Origin: Octopus vulgaris
Taxonomy: Eukaryota
Assembly (NCBI GenBank): GCA_951406725.2
Contig: OX597827.1
Location: 27,528,001-27,592,000, forward strand
Reading direction: 5' to 3'
DNA: 64,000 nucleotides
The notes under the pieces are model-generated. The model ran no database searches and was not told the DNA's origin. It saw nothing but the letters and a program-made list of their open reading frames with translations. How positions within the stretch are numbered: position 1 is the first letter of the stretch; every line of letters begins with the position of its first letter. The position numbers and the translations under genes are program-made. Shown one piece after another: positions 14,183 through 63,186 of the stretch.

Positions 14183-14198
14183 TTTATTATATAGAAGG

Positions 14199-14249
14199 AG
14201 CTTCTACAGGACTAGAACTGTTTCATTCAAGAGAAATCTTCAGGAAGCT
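14199..14249 (-). ncRNA. Type I hammerhead ribozyme
   Basis: AGCUUC-CUGAAGA-uUUC(ucuu)GAAu-GAAA-CAG(uucuaguc)CUG-UA/GAAGCU: 6-bp stem I, intact core, GUA cleavage triplet; U-U at the base of stem II. Confidence 0.72.
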
Positions 14250-14289
14250 AGTTCATTTACTGTGGTTAACCCCGAATCAACCCGGGACC

Positions 14290-27954: not shown

Positions 27955-27994
<40 letters not shown>

Positions 27995-28020
27995 CACATA
28001 CACAGATATATATGTATATG

Positions 28021-28237
28021 CTCTTTTACTCTTTTACTTGATTCAGTCATTTGACTGCGGCCATGCTGGAGCACCGCCTTTAATCGAGCAAATCGACCCA
28101 GGGACTTATTCTTTTGTAATTTCAGTACTTATTCTATCGGTCTCTTTTGCCGAACCGCTAAGTAATGGGGATATAAACACACCAGCATCGGTTGTCAAGC
28201 AATGCTAGGGGGACAAACACAGACACACAAACACACA

Positions 28238-28274
<37 letters not shown>

Positions 28275-28436
28275 GACGGGCTTCTTTCAGTTTCCGTCTG
28301 CCAAATCCACTCACAAGGCTTTGGTCGGCCCGAGGCTATAGTAGAAGACACTAGCCCAAGGTGCCACGCAGTGGGACTGAACCCGGAACCATGTAGTTCG
28401 TAAGCAAGCTACTTACCACACAGCCACTCCTGCGCC
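28021..28436 (-). mobile_element. Family A SINE, full length
   Basis: Reverse complement of the 33217 and 37117 copies. Confidence 0.9.
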
Positions 28437-28450
28437 ATATATATATATAT

Positions 28451-30992: not shown

Positions 30993-31124
30993 CACTCATT
31001 TTTCATATATGTGTATACGTGTATACGTGTACAAATATACATACACACACATATCTACACACATTTTTCACATATACATATATGTACAAATATACATACA
31101 AATACACACACATATATAGATATT

Positions 31125-31281
31125 AGGCGCAGGAGTAGCTGTGTAGTCAGTAGCTTGCTTACGAACTACATGGTTCCGGGTTCAGTCCCACTGCGTGGCA
31201 CCTTGGGCGAGTGTTTTCTACTATAGCCTCGACCAAAGCCTTGTGTGTAGATTTGGTAGACGGAAACTGAAAGAAGCCCTT

Positions 31282-31345
<64 letters not shown>

Positions 31346-31587
31346 CATACATACATACATACATACATCTATGAAATATAATGTGTGTATGTTTGTGTGT
31401 CTGTGGTTGTCCCCCACCGTCGTTTGACAACCGATGTGGTCTGTTTACGTCCCGTAATTTAGCGGTTCGGCAAAAGAGACCAATATACTAAGTACTAGGC
31501 TTACAAAGAATAAGTACTGGGGTCGATTTGTTCGAGTAAAGGCGGTGTTCTACCATGACCGCAGTCAAATAACTGAAAGAAATAAAA

Positions 31588-31590
<3 letters not shown>
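31125..31590 (+). mobile_element. Family A SINE, full length
   Basis: Head, core, internal microsatellite and tail all present. Confidence 0.88.
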
Positions 31591-31633
<43 letters not shown>

Positions 31634-31829
31634 GTATATATATGTGTGTGTGACCCCTCTGTTTGGCATTCGCCATGATAGATAGCTAGCCACGTGTAAT
31701 GCGTAACCAGTAAATCCTGGTTCAAAGAAACTAATTTTTAGCCATAGTCCTGTACGTTATTCCGAATGGCCGTTCACACCCTTCCTCTTCCTGTCAAATG
31801 CGCATGCTCTTTATATCAACGTTATTTGC

Positions 31830-33133: not shown

Positions 33134-33171
<38 letters not shown>

Positions 33172-33216
33172 ACTCATATATATATATATATATATATATA
33201 CATCTCATATATATAT

Positions 33217-33382
33217 AGGCGCAGGAGTGGCTGTGTGGTAAGTAGCTTGCTTACCAACCACATGGTTCCGGGTTCAGTCCCACTGCGTGGCACCTTGGGC
33301 AAGTGTCTTCTGCTATAGTCTCGGGCCGACCAATGCCTTGTGAGTGGATTTGGTAGACAGAAACTGAAAGAAGCCTGTCGTA

Positions 33383-33421
<39 letters not shown>

Positions 33422-33648
33422 ATGTATGTGTTTGTGTGTCTGTGTTTGTCTCCCTAGCATTGCTTGACAACCGATGCTGGTGTGTTTATGTCCCCGTCAA
33501 CTAGCGGTTCGGCAAAAGAGACCGATAAATTAAGTACTGGGCTTACAAAAAATAAGTCCCGGGATCGATTTGTTCGACTAAAGATGGTGCTCCAGCATGA
33601 CCACAGTCAAATGACTGAAACAAGTAAAAGAGAAAAGAGAAAAAGAGA
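33217..33648 (+). mobile_element. Family A SINE, full length
   Basis: ggcgcaggagtggctgtgtggtaag...ccttgggcaagtg...gactgaaacaagtaaaagag. Confidence 0.9.
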
Positions 33649-33711
33649 ATATATATATATATATATACATATACATGCATATATATATGCATATATATAT
33701 GCATATATATA

Positions 33712-33762
<51 letters not shown>

Positions 33763-36451: not shown

Positions 36452-37109
36452 ATAAGATCGTTAATATAAATATTGATGTAATCAAATGGACAGCATGGGA
36501 ATAAAAACCTTCAAAGGTAATAATTATTATTAAAATGGTTTAAAACATTTAATGTGGTTTTAGAGTCAGGTTTTTGGCTGCTATTTCCAGCGTGGAGGTA
36601 TCTCTTAGTTACCCTAAATTATAGTTTTAATAATAATTATTACCTTGGAAGGTTTTTATTCCCATGCTGGACACCTGATAAGATCGATATTTAAATTAAA
36701 GATCTTATTGTTATTTATAAAAATTTTTATATTTATTTCGTCATTGTATTTACTGCGGTGGTGTTTTAACCATATCGCACGAGGAGTTATTAGGCGGGCA
36801 ATTTAAACTGGTCGTGTGCATACGTGCATATATATGTATGTATACGTTCGCATATGTAAGTATTCGTATGTTATATGTGTATATATATGTGTATTTATGT
36901 TACTATATTCCACTGATGAAGCAAAGCATTACTAATGCAAAATCAGAAATCCGGGATCTGGAATTACCCAATAATTTTTTGTTAGTCTATTTTCTCCTTC
37001 CGTCTTCTCTCCTGGTGTTGTATGAACATTTAATGTAGCTTTAAAGTCAAGTTTTGGCTGCTATTTCCAGCGTGTTGGTATCTCTTACATACTCTAAATT
37101 ATAATTTTA
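36452..37109 (+). mobile_element. Non-coding HHR-bearing element with terminal direct repeat (481-bp period) and inverted 5' segment; retrozyme-like or non-autonomous PLE
   Basis: Direct repeats 36544-36629 and 37025-37109; inverted repeats 36452-36535 and 36625-36708; HHR at 36907-36964; (TA)n on both flanks. Confidence 0.7.
36907..36964 (+). ncRNA. Type I hammerhead ribozyme (base of stem II degenerate)
   Basis: AUUCCA-CUGAUGA-...GCAUUAcUAAUGC...-GAAA-UCCgGGA-UC/UGGAAU: 6-bp stem I, intact core, AUC triplet. Confidence 0.68.
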
Positions 37110-37116
37110 TATATAT

Positions 37117-37537
37117 AAGCGCAGGAGTGGCTGTGTGGTAAGTAGCTTGCTAACCAACCACATGGTTCCGGGTTCAGTCCCACTGCGTGGCACCTTGGGC
37201 AAGTGTCTTCTACTATAGCCCCGAGCCGACCAATGCCTTGTGAGTGGATTTGGCAGACGGAAACTGAAAGAAGACTGTCGTATATATGTATATATATATA
37301 TGTGTGTATGTGTGTGTGTTTGTGTATGTGTGTTTGTCCCCCTAGCATTGCTTGACAACCGATGCTGGTGTGTTTACGTCCCCGTCACTTAGCGGTTCGG
37401 CAAAAGAAACCGATAGAATAAGTACTGGGCTTACAAAGAATAAGTCCCGGGGTCGATTTGCTCGACTAAAAGTGGTGCTCCAGCATGGCCGCAGTCAAAT
37501 GACTGAAACAAGTAAAAGAGTAAAAGAGAGTAAGAAT
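37117..37537 (+). mobile_element. Family A SINE, full length
   Basis: Near-identical to the 33217 copy. Confidence 0.9.
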
Positions 37538-37568
37538 ATATATGTATACATATGTATATATATATATG

Positions 37569-37603
<35 letters not shown>

Positions 37604-37790
37604 GTATAGATATATATATATATATATATATATAAATGTATAGATGTATATATGCAATCGTAAATATGTGCATGGATATATTTTTGTGAAATTAAAGACA
37701 AAGATGCTTTCATGATATATGATTTTTTTAAATACATATTTTGTTTGCACAGACGCACGCCCACACATACACACACACTCACTCACGCAC

Positions 37791-38589: not shown

Positions 38590-38655
<66 letters not shown>

Positions 38656-38860
38656 CTACAAAATTAGAGAATGGAGAAACATACTTAAATCAATAGAACA
38701 TCAACTATCCGATGATACTCAATCCATACTTTAATACACCATTACATAGGAGTAAAGGCAATATATAAAATGAAATGAGATATACAGTAATAGTAAAAGT
38801 AAAAGTAAAAGTAAAAAGATAAAGAGATATAAGTAAAAAATTACAAATACAATATGCAAA

Positions 38861-38990
38861 TAAATCAAAACTGACAGCTGTTTCGGCAGTGGGGACAGTC
38901 ATACCTCATTTAACCTATAAGCCATAAAGGCAGGTATAAATGAGGCATTAACAAAGATGCCCCACGGCCTCTTCAGAGAATTAAATTAAA
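38861..38990 (-). ncRNA. Type I hammerhead ribozyme, left-arm copy
   Basis: Reverse complement of 44881-45010. Confidence 0.82.
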
Positions 38991-39321
38991 TTTGTTATAA
39001 TAGTGAAAAATATTATATAATCATATACATATAAATATAAAAATATAAAAAAGTAAAATATAAAAACTTATACATCATAATGCTACACTTGTATAATATA
39101 ATACATATTTGTACAAAAAGGAAGGTAACCAGAACAAAATAAAACAAAATATATAACAGTGTATATATAATATTAATAAGTACCGATATCATACATATTT
39201 AGCTAATAGTTTTTTTTAATAAAAAAAGGGGCTAACACATATGGAGATGAAAAATAATAATAATTAAATCCGTGGTACAGTTCACAAAATTCTAAAGCTA
39301 TAAAAGTTAATAAAAATTACT

Positions 39322-39355
<34 letters not shown>

Positions 39356-41085
39356 GTAATAATAATAAAAAAAATAATAAAAATAGATACAGTTAAGTTA
39401 TCACCAAGTCCATCCTTCCAAGATCGAAATAACTATGAGTTAAGAAATGCTGACCACTAGGTAAAGAAAATTTAGATTAATTCGATTGGCTATTGGTTTG
39501 AAATTTAAATCACAAAAGAAAATTATACGGTTGGTTAGTCAGGGAACGCCAATATTCACACACGCATCTACAGATCAATCGCACATACACACATAGTTAT
39601 ATGTATATACATACACTTGTACATATACATAATCATAAGCAACAACTAACACTTAGATAAACAAATAGGGAAGCAACCATGCTAACACTAAGTCCTTCAA
39701 AATTATAACTGAGCCTCAATAACAAAAAAAGAACCATCCATGCATTCTATAAAATATTTAATTAAGATATAAATGTATTTTTAAATATCAGTATGTTACT
39801 AATTCAGATAATTATTTCATGGGTAACTTAAAATTTGTAACACCGGTTTGTTGCAGAGTAAACATACGGTTGTTATGTTTATCGTAAGTTTGTTATGATT
39901 TAAAGTACGCTAAATTATAAAATATAAAATATAAAATATATTAATTTAGATATTATAAATAAGTCACTTATTAACTTAACAAATATAGTGCCAAAATATA
40001 CCAGTTTAGGCAATAAAAAATAGAGGGGGAAGTATTAATGTAAACGCTTATGAGAACATCACAGAAATTTTAAATAAATTTTATACTATAAAGACTTAAT
40101 ATGAAAAGAGATAAAATAAATAAAAAGGAATAAATACGAAGGAATAAATACGGTTATACACATAATTATAAGTACAAACTAGTATATATGTATTCATATA
40201 TTATTAAAATAAATAAAAAGAAATGATAGATATGTATGTATAAAACTACACCAGTATAAGTAAATAAGTAAAGAATAAATAGGTAACAAATTAAATGACT
40301 TGATATGTATGTAAACATCCACACTTAAATAGGCAAATAAATAAATAAATAGAAGACTAGATGCAAATATTGATAATATTACAATAAAATGGGAAATAAA
40401 TAAAAATAAATAAAGTGAATATATATATTTTATATTGTTGAAAGTAAATATGTATGGAAGGATAGTTTAAAGTACAGATCCAGAGGACTATAGATATAAA
40501 CTAAATATATGAGGCTGGTAACAATTATAAAGCAAAATGCATGTAAATGAGAAAATGAAAAAAATGAAAAAGGTTTATCAGTGAATAACATAAGATACAA
40601 ATTAAGGTGAGTACAAAAAGACCAAATATATAATAAAAACCTTCCAAATCAGCACATACAAAAAACCCATAATCTCAACCTAAACCCACCAAACTCACAA
40701 AAGGCTCTCATATATTACATATTATACAATATCATTACATTATCCAGAGCTAGGTATCTAACCAAGATATACATATATACTTTGCAATATACTATGCAAT
40801 ATTGGAAAACTTCAAAAATCACACATTACAAGGCAAATACCAAAATGAATATGTTATTTTATGTCATATTGCATTTCTCTTAAAAAAAACAAACAAAAAC
40901 CCACATACAAAAACCAAGAAACCAATAATACTAGACACATCCAATTAGTTATTATACAAATGTAGCTATAAAAATTATAAAATTATGAAATTTATAAAAT
41001 GTATACTTTAGAATTATAGAAGACCACAGGTATATTTAGTTAAAGAAGGGAATTAAAAAATTGATAATAGTGGAAGTGCTAAGTT

Positions 41086-42060
41086 CTATTTGAATCTAGA
41101 AAAGGTGAACGGTAGTCTATGAATACAAAAGAAGCTTTTCTCATTAATGTTATTAATAATTTGCCGACCCGCTTTAATAATGAAGAAAATTTCATTAATA
41201 CATAGAGAGCATTTTTTATTTTTTCCATTATACACAGGTGCTGAAGTTAGTATTTTCCAGTTTAATCTAAAATCTAAGTTCTTACTTTTAAGTTCCCAAA
41301 TATATGCACTTAGCCCTGTAGAGTACATTCTATTTTTATTCCTAAAAGTATATCTATGATAATTCCATCTTTGTTTTATGCTATTCATAGTTGCCCCGAT
41401 ATACACTCTACTACTCAATTGTGTATCTACAGTGCATTGGTAAACTACCTCCTTCCTGAGGCATTGATTACCAAATACACATTTATTTTTATTTCTGCAA
41501 TTACAAAGATTAACAGAATGAGGAAATCTAAGATTGGACACCACCCCTGTACTACTATTCACATTATAAGTGTTACAATTGTTATCATCATCCAAACCCA
41601 AAATCAACGAATGAGTTAATTCCACATTATCGGCTATATTCCTATCACTAGTACTAGTATTGGTAGTAGTGGTATGATCTATTACATTTATATTATCTCT
41701 GACAGGTATGGTGCACTCATTATTAGTAAGGAGGTTGCTCCCATTTGTTCCAAGAAAATTTCTATTCCTATTATTAATGAAGAGGGGCAAGTTTTCCTGG
41801 TCTAAATTCAATTTTCTATCCTTATAGAAGTGATCCAGTTTCTTGTTATTAAAAGAGGAGATGATGGTGGCTAGATTATGAGTAATGCTATATCCCACTC
41901 TAACAGTACCGTTGTTAATTAAAGGACTAAATTTATTCCTATCCTTACCAAAATGCCTAAAAATAATATTATGCAAAGCTCTCACTATGTTTGTTTTAAT
42001 CTGCATTGCATACGGGATAATCAACCAAAGAGTATCCTTATCAGAATTAGGATTGCCTAT
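41086..42060 (-). pseudogene. PLE ORF C-terminal part: thumb end, linker and GIY-YIG endonuclease (5' truncated, no RT core)
   Basis: LWLIIPY..TNI..LINNGTVRVGYS; CNCRNKNKCVFGNQC; VVYQCTV...VYIGATMNSIKQRWNYH; LSAYIWELK; CSLCINE; CIH. This layout resembles Nematis-type PLEs (from recall, unverified). Confidence 0.85.
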
Positions 42061-42061
42061 A

Positions 42062-42785
42062 GAATTTAGACCAGGAAAACTTGCCCCTCTTCATTAATAA
42101 TAGGAATAGAAATTTTCTTGGAACAAATGGGAGCAACCTCCTTACTAATAATGAGTGCACCATACCTGTCAGAGATAATATAAATGTAATAGATCATACC
42201 ACTACTACCAATACTAGTACTAGTGATAGGAATATAGCCGATAATGTGGAATTAACTCATTCGTTGATTTTGGGTTTGGATGATGATAACAATTGTAACA
42301 CTTATAATGTGAATAGTAGTACAGGGGTGGTGTCCAATCTTAGATTTCCTCATTCTGTTAATCTTTGTAATTGCAGAAATAAAAATAAATGTGTATTTGG
42401 TAATCAATGCCTCAGGAAGGAGGTAGTTTACCAATGCACTGTAGATACACAATTGAGTAGTAGAGTGTATATCGGGGCAACTATGAATAGCATAAAACAA
42501 AGATGGAATTATCATAGATATACTTTTAGGAATAAAAATAGAATGTACTCTACAGGGCTAAGTGCATATATTTGGGAACTTAAAAGTAAGAACTTAGATT
42601 TTAGATTAAACTGGAAAATACTAACTTCAGCACCTGTGTATAATGGAAAAAATAAAAAATGCTCTCTATGTATTAATGAAATTTTCTTCATTATTAAAGC
42701 GGGTCGGCAAATTATTAATAACATTAATGAGAAAAGCTTCTTTTGTATTCATAGACTACCGTTCACCTTTTCTAGATTCAAATAG
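42062..42785 (+). pseudogene. Mirror copy of the PLE linker and GIY-YIG endonuclease
   Basis: Translation identical to the C-terminal 233 aa of the minus-strand ORF. Confidence 0.85.
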
Positions 42786-44880
42786 AACTTAGCACTTCCA
42801 CTATTATCAATTTTTAATTCCCTTCTTTAACTAAATATACCTGTGGTCTTCTATAATTCTAAAGTATACATTTTATAAATTTCATAATTTTATAATTTTT
42901 ATAGCTACATTTGTATAATAACTAATTGGATGTGTCTAGTATTATTGGTTTCTTGGTTTTTGTATGTGGGTTTTTGTTTGTTTTTTTTAAGAGAAATGCA
43001 ATATGACATAAAATAACATATTCATTTTGGTATTTGCCTTGTAATGTGTGATTTTTGAAGTTTTCCAATATTGCATAGTATATTGCAAAGTATATATGTA
43101 TATCTTGGTTAGATACCTAGCTCTGGATAATGTAATGATATTGTATAATATGTAATATATGAGAGCCTTTTGTGAGTTTGGTGGGTTTAGGTTGAGATTA
43201 TGGGTTTTTTGTATGTGCTGATTTGGAAGGTTTTTATTATATATTTGGTCTTTTTGTACTCACCTTAATTTGTATCTTATGTTATTCACTGATAAACCTT
43301 TTTCATTTTTTTCATTTTCTCATTTACATGCATTTTGCTTTATAATTGTTACCAGCCTCATATATTTAGTTTATATCTATAGTCCTCTGGATCTGTACTT
43401 TAAACTATCCTTCCATACATATTTACTTTCAACAATATAAAATATATATATTCACTTTATTTATTTTTATTTATTTCCCATTTTATTGTAATATTATCAA
43501 TATTTGCATCTAGTCTTCTATTTATTTATTTATTTGCCTATTTAAGTGTGGATGTTTACATACATATCAAGTCATTTAATTTGTTACCTATTTATTCTTT
43601 ACTTATTTACTTATACTGGTGTAGTTTTATACATACATATCTATCATTTCTTTTTATTTATTTTAATAATATATGAATACATATATACTAGTTTGTACTT
43701 ATAATTATGTGTATAACCGTATTTATTCCTTCGTATTTATTCCTTTTTATTTATTTTATCTCTTTTCATATTAAGTCTTTATAGTATAAAATTTATTTAA
43801 AATTTCTGTGATGTTCTCATAAGCGTTTACATTAATACTTCCCCCTCTATTTTTTATTGCCTAAACTGGTATATTTTGGCACTATATTTGTTAAGTTAAT
43901 AAGTGACTTATTTATAATATCTAAATTAATATATTTTATATTTTATATTTTATAATTTAGCGTACTTTAAATCATAACAAACTTACGATAAACATAACAA
44001 CCGTATGTTTACTCTGCAACAAACCGGTGTTACAAATTTTAAGTTACCCATGAAATAATTATCTGAATTAGTAACATACTGATATTTAAAAATACATTTA
44101 TATCTTAATTAAATATTTTATAGAATGCATGGATGGTTCTTTTTTTGTTATTGAGGCTCAGTTATAATTTTGAAGGACTTAGTGTTAGCATGGTTGCTTC
44201 CCTATTTGTTTATCTAAGTGTTAGTTGTTGCTTATGATTATGTATATGTACAAGTGTATGTATATACATATAACTATGTGTGTATGTGCGATTGATCTGT
44301 AGATGCGTGTGTGAATATTGGCGTTCCCTGACTAACCAACCGTATAATTTTCTTTTGTGATTTAAATTTCAAACCAATAGCCAATCGAATTAATCTAAAT
44401 TTTCTTTACCTAGTGGTCAGCATTTCTTAACTCATAGTTATTTCGATCTTGGAAGGATGGACTTGGTGATAACTTAACTGTATCTATTTTTATTATTTTT
44501 TTTTATTATTATTACTATTATTATTATTATTATTATTATTATTATCAATAGTAATTTTTATTAACTTTTATAGCTTTAGAATTTTGTGAACTGTACCACG
44601 GATTTAATTATTATTATTTTTCATCTCCATATGTGTTAGCCCCTTTTTTTATTAAAAAAAACTATTAGCTAAATATGTATGATATCGGTACTTATTAATA
44701 TTATATATACACTGTTATATATTTTGTTTTATTTTGTTCTGGTTACCTTCCTTTTTGTACAAATATGTATTATATTATACAAGTGTAGCATTATGATGTA
44801 TAAGTTTTTATATTTTACTTTTTTATATTTTTATATTTATATGTATATGATTATATAATATTTTTCACTATTATAACAAA

Positions 44881-45010
44881 TTTAATTTAATTCTCTGAAG
44901 AGGCCGTGGGGCATCTTTGTTAATGCCTCATTTATACCTGCCTTTATGGCTTATAGGTTAAATGAGGTATGACTGTCCCCACTGCCGAAACAGCTGTCAG
45001 TTTTGATTTA
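44881..45010 (+). ncRNA. Type I hammerhead ribozyme with an 85-nt extended stem II
   Basis: CUGAAGA 44895-44901; stem II GGCcGUGGGG/CCCCACuGCC enclosing AUGCCUCAUUUA/UAAAUGAGGUAU; GAAA 44987-44990; palindromic stem III ACAGCUGU; GUC cleavage after 44998; stem I is 2 bp plus an AU-rich extension. Confidence 0.82.
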
Positions 45011-45383
45011 TTTGCATATTGTATTTGTAATTTTTTACTTATATCTCTTTATCTTTTTACTTTTACTTTTACTTTTACTATTACTGTATATCTCATTTCA
45101 TTTTATATATTGCCTTTACTCCTATGTAATGGTGTATTAAAGTATGGATTGAGTATCATCGGATAGTTGATGTTCTATTGATTTAAGTATGTTTCTCCAT
45201 TCTCTAATTTTGTAGTATTAATTTACGGTAATATTATTACCCTTACCCATTTAATACAATAGATGAACTGATTGCTTGACAATTTCTAACATCTATGTAT
45301 TAATTTTTGTTGGGTACCTATCTAGCAGTATATTGGATATATATTATCCCATGGTGGGTTGAATTTTCAACCCCTATCTCATT

Positions 45384-45414
<31 letters not shown>

Positions 45415-46368: not shown

Positions 46369-46627
46369 ATAATATATATTTTTGCATATTTACATACATG
46401 TATGTACATAGCTACATATATATGTATATATTCATGGATATATGGGGTATAGGACGTAAAAATTAACGTAAACAAAGTGAGAAACGAGAACAGGAAAATA
46501 TAAACATGGGAAACGAACATTTTTTTCGAACAACGAAAGAAACAAATAGAGAAACGAGGCAGGCAACAAAAAGAACAATCCCGTCATCAGTTGTCCCCTG
46601 TTTTATCTAGTCCGCATATATATATAA

Positions 46628-47025
46628 AGGCGCAGGAGTGGCTGTGTGGTAAGTAGCTTGTTTACCAACCACACGGTTCCGGGTTCAGTCCCACTGCGTG
46701 GCACCTTGGGCAAGTGTCTTCTACTATAGCCTCGGGCCGACAATAGCCTTGTGAGAGGATTTGGTAGACGGAAACTGAAAGAAGTCCGTCGTATATATGT
46801 ATATATATGCGTGTGTGTGTTTGTGTGTCTGTGTTTGTCCCTCTAGCATTGCTTGACAACCGATGCTGGTGTGTTTATGTCCCCGTTACTTAGCGGTTCG
46901 GCAAAAGAGACCGATAGAATAAGTACTGGGCTTACAAAAAGGATAAGTCCCGGGGTCGAGTTGCTCGATTAAAGGTGGTGCTTCAGCATGGCCGCAGTCA
47001 TATGACTGAAACAAGTAAAAAAAAA
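46628..47025 (+). mobile_element. Family A SINE, full length
   Basis: Near-identical to the 33217 and 37117 copies. Confidence 0.9.
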
Positions 47026-47048
47026 TATACATACATATATATAGATAC

Positions 47049-47086
<38 letters not shown>

Positions 47087-47092
<6 letters not shown>

Positions 47093-48420: not shown

Positions 48421-48466
<46 letters not shown>

Positions 48467-50374
48467 TCATCAAACCGGCGGACAAAGGCGGAGCCGTGGT
48501 GGTGTGGCGCGCGGATCTCTACAGGGAGGAAGCGCTCAGCCAGCTTCAAAATCCCCTCTTCTATCGCCTCCTCCCCTCTGATCCCACCTCTTCCTACCAA
48601 CAGCGAGTGTCCTCCACTATCCGCGAACTCATCTCCTCTTCTGCTCTCCCCCCACCGCCACCAACCTCATCGTCCGCACTCCCCGCACCTCCACCATCTA
48701 TTTCCTTCCCAAAATTCATAAGCCCAATAACCCTGGCCGCCCCATCATTTCCGCCTGTAATTGCCCAACTGAACACATTTCCCTATACCTCGACCGCATC
48801 CTGTCCCCCTTAGTCAAAGCCCTCCCTTCCCACATACACGATACCAACCACAACTCCTCCGTCTCTTCAATTCCTTTTCCTTACCTTCCAGCCCCTCACA
48901 CCTCCTCTTCACCCTTGACATCAAATCCCTGTATACGGTACTTCCCCACAACGACGGTCTCCTAGCTCTCCAACACTTCCTCGACCGTCGTCCCGACCCC
49001 ACCCCTAGCACCCCCACCCTCCTCCGCCTGGCAGAGCTCGTCCTAACCCTCAACTATTTCACTTCGCCGGGGAAACGTACCAACAGGTGTCTGGGGTCGT
49101 GATGGGAACGAGAATGGGCCCCAATTTCGCCAATCTCTTTGTTGGCTACATTGAGGCCCAAGTATTCTCCCAATTCTCCGGGCCGACCCCAGAACTATAC
49201 GGTCGTTACATAGCCGACTGTATAGGCTCCACCTCCCTTTCCCGCGAACAACTCTGCCACTTCATCTCTTTCCTCTCTAACTTCCACCCCTCTCTACAAT
49301 TCACTTCCACCATATCCAATACTTCCGTTAACTTCCTTGATATCTCACTCAGCATCGACCCCCCACTCTCTCACCACCTCCGCCTTCTTCAAACCCACGG
49401 ATTCCCACCTCTATCTCAACTTCTCCTCCTCCCATCCCTTCCACACAAAACGGGCCATCCACTACTCCCAGTTCCTCCGCCTCCGACGCTTGTACAGCCG
49501 CGACCAGGATTTCGAGACCCAGTCTCAATACCTGGCCCGCCTGTTCAGGCTTCGAGGATACCCACCTACCCTGGTCTTGAACGCCCTCGCCCGCGCTCGT
49601 CGCATCGACCGCACCACCGCCCTTTCTCCTTCCAATCACCCCCCACGCACCCCCTTTCCTCTCCTTTTCCACCCCTCTACTCTACCCCTTCGTCGGAAGA
49701 TACTTCGTGCCTTCCGTCGTCTCCAGCTCGATTCCACGACCCACCCCATATTCCCCAACCCACCCCTGTCCTCCTTCAAACGAGCCCGGAATCTACGCGA
49801 CCTCCTGGTCCGTAGCACCCTCCCTTCTTTCCTCTCGGCCCCACTCGGATCCTTCCCGTGCTCCAGATCCCGCTGCAACACCTGCCCCTTCATCACCAAC
49901 ACCACTGCTGTCACCGGTTCCAACCGGCGAACTGTACGTATCAGGCATTCTTTTACGTGCACCTCGTCTGGACTCATATACTGCATTAAATGCAACCTCT
50001 GCGGAATGCTGTATATAGGACAGACGGGACGCCGGTTGTCAGACCGATTCGCCGAACATCTGAGGGATGTTCGTCTACTGTCCAATTCTCCCGTCGCACG
50101 TCACTTCCGCTCGGCCAGCCATTCCCCCGATGACATCTCGGTGTTTGGTCTTGCCCCACACAACGGCTCTCCACAATCTAGGCTTCACTTGGAGCAACGG
50201 CTCATATTCCTTCTACAGACTCTAACCCCACACGGACTCAACACAGCCCCCTCCTCTTAGTGACTGCGCTCCACTTCTTCCCACTAGCATCTTTTATTTT
50301 TTATTTATTATTTATTAATTATTATTTATTTTTTTATTTTATATTTTTTAATTTTTAAAATTGTCCTTATGCAG

Positions 50375-62794: not shown

Positions 62795-63039
62795 ATTTTT
62801 AATTATATCAGAGGGAAATGGAAATTAATTAAAATTTACATTTCCAGTGGTTTAACGTGTAAAAATTTAGTCCAAAAGACTATGTATTAGTCATACGATA
62901 TAGTGTACATGTAAACAAATAAGGAATCCACTCACGGGATTCAACATGCTAGAGAGAACAGCTAGGTTCTATAACCACAAAATTATGGATAATATTCGGC
63001 AGGAACGAAATGAAAAATAAAAACATTTTACCATCTAGT

Positions 63040-63126
63040 TTCCTGGACCAATTGGTTTCTGATTTTAGTTTAGCGAGTACATGAATAACATATATACTCG
63101 CCAGGTGCAATCGTCTTCAGCAGGAA
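63040..63126 (-). ncRNA. Type I hammerhead ribozyme with extended stem II
   Basis: UUCCUG-CUGAAGA-cGAUU..UGGCGAGUAUAU/AUGUACUCGCUA..AAUCa-GAAA-CCAAUUGG-UC/CAGGAA: 6-bp stem I, palindromic stem III, GUC triplet. Confidence 0.82.
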
Positions 63127-63186
63127 CACCTAGGGTTAAACGTATACACACGAGATGATCAAACTACGTGCCCCTTGCTTACACAT

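What the first reader, a model, noticed from the sequence alone, without database searches (positions are those of the whole stretch)
44881..45010. Hammerhead with an 85-nt multi-helix stem II in the PLE 3' region
Seen: perfect core (CUGAAGA, GAAA, GUC) and G10.1-C11.1. Stem II has a GC-rich basal helix, a 12-bp helix (AUGCCUCAUUUA/UAAAUGAGGUAU) and apical ACCU/AGGU and GCC/GGC helices, while stem I is only 2 bp before U-U mismatches. Known: most natural HHRs have a short stem II and a stem I-II tertiary contact. Inference: an atypical architecture that descriptor searches with short stem II limits would miss; the extension may be a protein-binding or RT-recruitment domain.
Basis: partly seen in the sequence, partly recalled or inferred. 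Interest (0 to 1): 0.7.

Follow-up and report, generated by a model that had tools for sequence, protein, structure and literature searches.

The report
Long-armed hammerhead of a Penelope retroelement
This is a likely self-cutting RNA motif (a hammerhead ribozyme) near the end of a known kind of animal jumping gene; one of its arms is three times longer than in any close relative examined, which hides it from a search trained on those relatives, and the arm likely just steadies the fold rather than recruiting the element's enzyme.

Summary
Confirmed. 44877-45014 holds an intact type I hammerhead layout (cut predicted after C44998) with an 85-nt, 33-bp unbranched stem II (-40.7 kcal/mol, 0 of 1000 shuffles as stable). 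Stem II is 10-28 nt in 52 of 79 related loci with a hit and 10-24 nt in published Hydra rows; a model built from short ones misses this motif. Rfam misses short ones too. Variants among family copies mostly keep the pairing (15 of 18, p about 0.06; some double changes), so shape seems constrained, sequence not. An RT-recruitment role is not supported: copies end 220 and 390 nt downstream, and the last 80 nt, not stem II, are shared with related families. Likely a folding and 3'-end stabiliser; cleavage is untested. The scan noted long stem II hammerheads before on other DNA of this and another genome.

The parts
44877..45014 (+). Type I hammerhead motif, whole (dimer type, long stem II)
44877..44894 (+). 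Stem I 5' strand: 2 bp, two U-U, then 4 bp and a further weak 3-5 bp
   Evidence: pair probabilities
44895..44901 (+). Core C3-A9, CUGAAGA
44902..44986 (+). Stem II, 85 nt, 33 bp unbranched hairpin, 47% GC in a 24% GC UTR
   Evidence: family variants
44987..44998 (+). G12-A13-A14, palindromic stem III ACAGCUGU (44990-44997), C17 = 44998; predicted cut after 44998
44999..45014 (+). Stem I 3' strand
38857..38994 (-). Identical mirror copy of the hammerhead in the left arm (C3 at 38976, stem II 38969-38885)
38651..41825 (-). Left arm of the inverted insertion, 99.7% identical to 42046-45220; abuts (TA)n at 38650
41086..42090 (-). 334-codon open 3' remnant of the PLE ORF: end of the RT-side region, Asn-rich linker, GIY-YIG endonuclease with Hydra-type CxCX5C, CxxC, CxH; runs through the 220-nt spacer
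42063..42785 (+). Shorter ORF remnant of the right arm (240 codons, same C-terminus); no RT core
42786..44876 (+). 2.1-kb AT-rich 3' UTR with no stable fold and no second CUGANGA core
45015..45220 (+). 3' part of the pseudo-LTR; end A at about 45216-45220, where the left arm and contigs of three runs pass into (TA)n
   Evidence: X1, X2; X6
45221..45389 (+). 170-nt tail on the right arm only; end B at about 45385-45389 before (TA)n; last 80 nt fold into three small hairpins and are shared with related families

Best explanation
It is a type I hammerhead motif in the pseudo-LTR of a 5'-truncated Hydra-clade Penelope-like element, predicted to cut after C44998 mainly as a dimer, and its 85-nt stem II likely acts as a shape-only clamp that fixes the fold and likely shields the 3' end of the cut RNA. 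Shown: intact core, palindromic stem III, very stable unbranched stem II, Hydra-type endonuclease upstream, inverted two-armed insertion in (TA)n, mostly pair-keeping variation. Predicted by folding: a single copy misfolds (C3-U4-G5 pairs into stem III; the active monomer lies 5.2 kcal/mol above its ground state), whereas two copies in a tandem pLTR-ORF-pLTR transcript form a double hammerhead 5.5 kcal/mol below two free monomers. Inferred: with weak AU-rich stem I and no loop near the core for the usual loop I-loop II contact, the GC-rich arm is the one element that folds locally and fast; after cutting it would sit 12 nt from the 3' end of a unit-length RNA. Inferred: reverse transcription starts further downstream, at ends A and B, on an uncut or re-ligated template, since this genomic copy runs through the cut site. 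At this locus the two copies face opposite ways and cannot dimerise in cis; the copy lacks the RT core and is non-autonomous.
For: Fold and shuffles. Monomer and dimer energies: monomer ground state -45.7, active monomer -40.5, two monomers -91.4, active double hammerhead -96.9, free dimer -98.5 kcal/mol. Hydra motifs CNCRNKNKC, CSLCINE, CIH match the clade description (PMC8557442 section 11); the endonuclease hits 79 of the 79 Hydra-type loci by tblastn. Of 18 substitutions listed in stem II by contigs of public runs, 7 fall on the 19 unpaired positions, 8 keep their pair, 3 break it, and for 2 of those 3 the partner change is also listed; 44926 C>T with 44967 G>A lie in one contig by depth arithmetic (run X3, depth 12.8). 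A more diverged subfamily (marked by +AA at 44951) shows a re-paired basal helix, AGAUA with UAUCU, in its two loose ends (linkage inferred from depths). No listed substitution in the core or stem III (44895-44901, 44987-44998), nor in 44987-44998. A second, sequence-unrelated long stem II hammerhead (54 nt, palindromic stem III) lies at 63120 on the minus strand. Dimer cleavage and low activity of PLE hammerheads: PMC4209133 (parts 1-2 of 4 read), PMC6765202 (passages).
Against: No cleavage data. The variation tests are weak: unpaired enrichment p=0.06, pair-keeping transitions 8 of 10 against 0.53 expected p=0.08, combined 15 of 18 p=0.06; copies are related, the variant tables are capped (one search shows no rows 5' of 44946 although the majority change at 44916 must be there), and one change (44972 A>C) breaks the window's register. 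One diverged contig has U4 changed to C (loose end). The data cannot separate a useful clamp from a tolerated expansion. Relatives with 10-28 nt stems persist without it, though most have better stems I. No place where many molecules begin or end was listed. The free dimer has an inactive fold 1.6 kcal/mol below the active one.
Confidence: 0.5

Rival explanations
1. Tolerated expansion: stem II grew by insertion or inverted duplication because dimer-type PLE hammerheads need no loop II contact; selection only removes changes that let the extra sequence mispair with the core.
For: Short stems suffice in all 52 related loci with a first hit; long arms of unrelated sequence occur in two families in this window; this element also has an expanded 3' UTR (2.1 kb against 59-364 nt) and protein linker, so it accumulates sequence generally; engineered inserts in stem II are tolerated (PMC2777235, passages).
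Against: The arm is 47% GC in a 24% GC UTR and the only strongly folding segment of it; pair-keeping changes reach the middle and apical helices, far from the core.
Confidence: 0.25
2. One reading: the extension is a binding site for the element's RT-endonuclease or a host protein that recruits the RNA or assists cleavage.
For: The lizard Poseidon hammerhead cleaves only with its protein present (PMC11167929, passages), so protein contact near PLE hammerheads is real; a 33-bp bulged helix could be bound by shape.
Against: In that system RT starts at a stem-loop downstream of the ribozyme and ribozyme mutants still insert. Here copies end about 220 and 390 nt 3' of the cut; the segment shared at 80% or more with other families is 45306-45385 (loose ends diverge on both sides). 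Loop and bulge letters of stem II are among the most variable. No similarity of stem II to the 81 fetched loci or to the other long-armed motif. Relatives carry a twice-repeated GCTCC...GAGCAC motif between cut site and start codon instead (seen in 7 of 7 loci printed, twice in 4 or more).
Confidence: 0.15
3. The hairpin is a substrate or decoy for host double-stranded-RNA enzymes (Drosha/Dicer-type processing or ADAR editing), released by ribozyme cleavage.
For: 33 bp with bulges and single-stranded flanks is about the size of a microRNA precursor (size from my own knowledge).
Against: Best Rfam match is a chance-level microRNA model, E=2.1 on the opposite strand; the A>G changes listed in stem II also occur in a DNA-type run, so they show no editing.
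Confidence: 0.05
4. The motif no longer cleaves: a fossil core kept only by recent copying of the family.
For: Weak proximal stem I (2 bp, then U-U), predicted core misfolding in the monomer, genomic copy continuous across the cut site.
Against: Core and palindrome intact, no listed core substitution among 909 contigs of run X1 at 2% share; a 2-bp helix I is known from Drosophila virilis Penelope (PMC4209133).
Confidence: 0.05

Closest known systems
Hammerheads of Hydra-clade PLEs (Craig et al. 2021, PMC8557442; passages, section 11, and supplement parts 1, 2, 52, 53 of 57 read)
   Same: Type I, CUGANGA/GAAAC core, short self-complementary stem III, in the 3' pLTR of a C-terminal GIY-YIG element inserted in (TA)n, with an inverted 5'-truncated copy.
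   Different: Stem II 85 nt against 10-24 nt in all 26 Hydra rows of File S2 (22 nt in Hydra-1_Obim); 2.1-kb 3' UTR although Hydra elements are generally under 3 kb in all; 170-nt tail against the 30-40 bp given for PLEs.
Drosophila virilis Penelope and related PLE hammerheads with small palindromic helix III (Cervera and de la Pena 2014, PMC4209133; parts 1-2 of 4 and passages read, supplements not seen)
   Same: 2-bp helix I next to the core, bulged helix II, palindromic helix III, no recognisable tertiary contact, proposed dimer action.
   Different: Helix II there is 6-8 bp; here 33 bp. No extra nucleotide between A9 and G10.1 here.
PLE-X1_sMoe hammerhead of spike moss (Craig et al. File S2)
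   Same: A PLE hammerhead listed with a long stem II region (9+35+9 = 53 nt), marked as deviating from the canonical structure: the nearest published precedent I found.
   Different: Other clade (Chlamys-related, endonuclease-less, plant); shorter; drawn as a 9-bp stem with a large loop.
Poseidon element of Anolis carolinensis (Frangieh et al. 2024, PMC11167929; passages read)
   Same: Hammerhead upstream of two internal RT start sites that define the ends of genomic copies.
   Different: Other clade; ORF starts inside stem II there; ends 30-40 nt apart against about 170 here; protein assistance tested there only.
Animal non-LTR retrozymes (PMC7229834, passages; bioRxiv 10.64898/2026.07.22.740005, part 1 of 5 and passages)
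   Same: Type I hammerhead repeats tied to PLEs, dimer cleavage, circular RNA intermediates.
   Different: This copy carries an ORF remnant and no tandem repeat; no tandem joint was listed.

Membership tests
Type I hammerhead ribozyme | Core CUGANGA ... GAAA ... UH with C3-G8 and A15.1-U16.1 | tested here: met
Type I hammerhead ribozyme | Three helices around the core, open end in stem I | tested here: met
   Stem II very stable; stem I imperfect but extended; stem III 2-3 bp as monomer, 8 bp as dimer
Type I hammerhead ribozyme | Self-cleavage after position 17 | not testable with these tools
   No bench assay; no clustered molecule ends listed, but the runs covering the motif are contigs
Canonical (extended) hammerhead | Loop II within about 4 bp of the core docking on loop or bulge I | tested here: not met
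   Apical loop lies 33 bp from the core; a bulge-bulge contact cannot be excluded
Rfam hammerhead families | Score above gathering threshold | tested here: inconclusive
   No hit (one search showed only the top 150 of 322 rows), but short Hydra hammerheads also gave none
Dimer-type PLE hammerhead | Short palindromic stem III allowing a double hammerhead | tested here: met
   ACAGCUGU is its own reverse complement, duplex -11.1 kcal/mol; active dimer favoured over two monomers
Hydra clade of EN+ PLEs | C-terminal GIY-YIG with CxCX5C linker, CxxC before E and CxH after N | tested here: met
Hydra clade of EN+ PLEs | Insertion in (TA)n; hammerhead in the pLTR; inverted 5'-truncated copy | tested here: met
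Hydra clade of EN+ PLEs | RT features (RWK, DKT, RT phylogeny) | not testable with these tools
Non-LTR retrozyme | Protein-free tandem repeat with a hammerhead in each unit | tested here: not met
   This copy is an inverted pair with ORF remnants; other copies of the family not assessed
SECIS element | In-frame UGA in the ORF and AUGA...GA quartet on a stem | tested here: not met
   No internal stop in the 334 visible codons; AUGA occurs only on the 3' strand inside Watson-Crick helices; rest of ORF not visible

The most novel reading that the evidence does not exclude
Several octopus-lineage Penelope-like families independently bolted a large RNA domain onto stem II of their hammerheads, making natural allosteric ribozymes: binding of the element's own protein or of a host dsRNA enzyme to the arm switches cleavage or circularisation, and descriptor-based surveys have missed this whole class.
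Probability: 0.1. Interest if true: 0.75.

Novelty: new variant of a known kind. Interest (0 to 1): 0.42.

Why it matters
The role of PLE hammerheads is still open (PMC8557442 says so; the lizard element does not need cleavage in vitro). A natural 33-bp stem II attached to an ORF-bearing Hydra-clade element gives a simple truncation series to ask what lies outside the core, and shows that short-stem descriptors and profiles undercount these ribozymes. If the arm is only tolerated, the lesson is limited to search design.

Tried and rejected
No whole genome held, so no direct alignment of full family copies. No RNA holder listed; runs marked 'RNA?' are guesses. Runs X13 and X6 have no contigs over the hammerhead while covering sequence further 3'; they stop at different places (about 45032 and 45112-45127), so this is not used. 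Raw DNA run X23 (same species label, 1.9 Gb read) gave no read over the motif; unexplained, not used. Summed contig depth is not a copy number and is not used as one. Search for longer homologues of the ORF remnant: none. Pfam: no family for the remnant. Viral contigs: no relative of the endonuclease; the long-spacer DNA pattern gave 2 matches, L001 without a closing stem II and L002 with weak stem I, not hit by model R1. One 83-nt second hit in L052 (variant core, -17.5 kcal/mol) is within the range of shuffled hits and was set aside. Similarity between the sequences before ends A and B: not significant, 589 of 2000 shuffles. Tandem joint of a retrozyme unit: none listed. SECIS and kink-turn readings of the arm: rejected by inspection (consensus recalled). 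Look-up of this sequence among earlier findings: none. Papers not held: PMC5850863 (Terminons) and PMC5785218 (Lunse et al.), so long stems II in those sets, and in the unseen supplements of PMC4209133 and PMC3088659, cannot be excluded. Literature searches for a long natural stem II; 'long helix II' in PMC13725137 means 6-8 bp.

Full report
Observation. The sequence at 44881-45010 is as described. C3 is 44895, stem II spans 44902-44986, G12 is 44987 and C17 is 44998. Stem II folds as one unbranched hairpin of 33 pairs, -40.7 kcal/mol, against -20.6 +/- 3.0 for 1000 dinucleotide shuffles, none as stable; it is 47% GC in a 24% GC UTR and the only strongly folding 120-nt window between the stop codon and the ribozyme. 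A relaxed descriptor of my own gave 4 hits in the window (44895 +; 63120, 38976, 14243 -) and 8 hits in 40 shuffled windows, none with a stem II below -25 kcal/mol. Two additions: stem I continues beyond the U-U pairs, and stem III, ACAGCUGU, is a perfect palindrome.

Setting. The motif lies in an inverted insertion: 38651-41825 and 42046-45220 are 99.7% identical reverse complements, so a second identical hammerhead lies on the minus strand. Both arms begin in the 3' part of an ORF. The left arm ends at the equivalent of 45220 and the right arm runs 170 nt further; both meet (TA)n. The ORF remnant has CNCRNKNKC, a GIY-YIG-like VYQC...YIG, CSLCINE and CIH, the marks that Craig et al. give for the Hydra clade (PMC8557442 section 11). 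It has 4397 relatives at E<=0.001; the closest by identity (60% over 85 residues) is a UniRef entry from Octopus bimaculoides. The RT core is missing, so the clade call rests on the endonuclease, the (TA)n target and the layout. One contig of run X2 shows another insertion with the same two ends and much shorter arms, and loose ends into (TA)n fall at 45216-45218 and 45385 in several runs.

How unusual is the arm. I fetched 79 loci encoding Hydra-type endonucleases from metagenome assemblies (best 80 of 492; the query was an alignment of 18 of the 150 hits, chosen for shared motifs, so it favours typical members). My descriptor, which allows 200 nt, found a hammerhead behind the match in 52 of 79; the first hit had a stem II of 10-28 nt (40 distinct) and lay 59-364 nt behind the match. 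Here the values are 85 nt and 2110 nt. The 26 Hydra rows of Craig's File S2 have 10-24 nt; the longest in that file is 53 nt, in a spike-moss element of another clade. A covariance model from 38 of the short motifs found 19 matches at E<=0.05 in 25 held-out loci and a short-stem motif at 14195-14253 of this window, but nothing at 44895 or 38976 up to E=5, and the 54-nt motif at 63120 only at E=1.1. So short-stem models do miss it. Rfam's silence proves nothing, since it also missed the short ones.

Variation among copies. The tables list 18 substitutions in stem II: 7 at unpaired places, 8 pair-keeping, 3 pair-breaking, of which 2 have the partner change listed. For 44926/44967 the two changes sit in one contig by depth arithmetic (X3: 275.5-218.1 leaves the 54.7 and 2.69 contigs; 21.2 = 12.8+8.47). 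Listed indels fall in the apical loop, the 4-nt bulge, the weak stretch 44971-44975 and once in the apical helix. A diverged subfamily shows five consecutive new or shifted pairs in the basal helix, read from two loose ends whose linkage is inferred. Each statistical test gives only p=0.06-0.08, the copies are related, and the tables are capped. This is suggestive of constraint on shape, not proof.

Mechanism. Folding predicts that a single copy hides C3-U4-G5 in stem III (probability 0.83) and that the active monomer costs 5.2 kcal/mol, while a double hammerhead is 5.5 kcal/mol better than two monomers and 1.6 above the best dimer fold. This fits the dimer model for PLE hammerheads (PMC4209133; PMC6765202). 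Tandem units with a hammerhead at each end, 2447-2503 nt apart, are seen in three relatives. In such a transcript the cut leaves stem II on the upstream product, 12 nt from its 3' end, and ends A and B on the downstream product. I infer that the arm nucleates folding where stems I and III are weak and shields the non-polyadenylated end. At this locus the copies are inverted; a read-through RNA would form a 3.2-kb duplex instead (inference).

RT recruitment. In the one PLE studied in vitro, RT starts at a stem-loop downstream of the ribozyme, the start sites match the ends of genomic copies, ribozyme mutants still insert, and cleavage needs the protein (PMC11167929). By analogy the start signals here lie near 45220 and 45389. 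The last 80 nt fold into small hairpins (z -2.9) and are shared with other families whose sequence diverges on both sides. Stem II has no likeness to the fetched loci or to the other long-armed motif in the window. Shape-based protein binding remains possible. The lead on terminal hairpins and the wording of two fixed ends come in part from earlier notes of the scan.

Novelty. The ribozyme class, its host clade and the inverted layout are known. I found no paper describing an animal PLE hammerhead with a stem II of this size (searches; two key papers not held, several supplements unseen). Earlier unchecked notes of this scan report long stems II in other pieces of this genome and in another genome; whether their 485-495 nt repeats are this family I could not tell, since sequence look-ups found nothing. 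Verdict: real, a new variant of a known kind, moderate interest.

Noticed in passing
window 63036-63130, minus strand: Second, sequence-unrelated type I hammerhead with a 54-nt stem II (12-bp inner helix), 6-bp stem I and 10-nt palindromic stem III, in a 400-nt remnant between (TA)n tracts.
   Followed up: partly
window 14195-14253, minus strand: Short-stem hammerhead-like motif in a 130-nt remnant between (TA)n tracts; model R1 E=0.005.
   Followed up: partly
window 45306-45385: Three small hairpins before end B, shared with related families and covered by far more contig depth than the hammerhead in some runs; listed variants fall largely in loops and bulges.
   Followed up: partly
L005:153-301, L044:327-477, L062:103-248, L065:152-332: A GCTCC...GAGCAC motif occurs twice between the hammerhead cut site and the start codon in Hydra-type relatives, once in L006 and L007.
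   Followed up: no
window 48466-50260, plus strand: Degenerate, frameshifted RT plus GIY-YIG element of another PLE type (weak Pfam GIY-YIG, E=0.0065); no hammerhead hit near it.
   Followed up: no
window 42100-42330: Asn/Thr-rich linker of about 90 residues before the CxCX5C motif that relatives lack; the Octopus protein P0002 also has an Asn-rich stretch there.
   Followed up: no
L040:2837-3020: Two hammerheads 148 nt apart behind one endonuclease.
   Followed up: no
window 44700-45300, run X23: 1.9 Gb of raw DNA reads under the same species label gave no read over the hammerhead, unlike contigs of other runs; unexplained.
   Followed up: no
window 27975-28450, 31072-31644, 33155-33761, 37108-37652, 46617-47092: Several copies of a 500-nt interspersed repeat, 74-90% alike; SINE-like by recall.
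   Followed up: no
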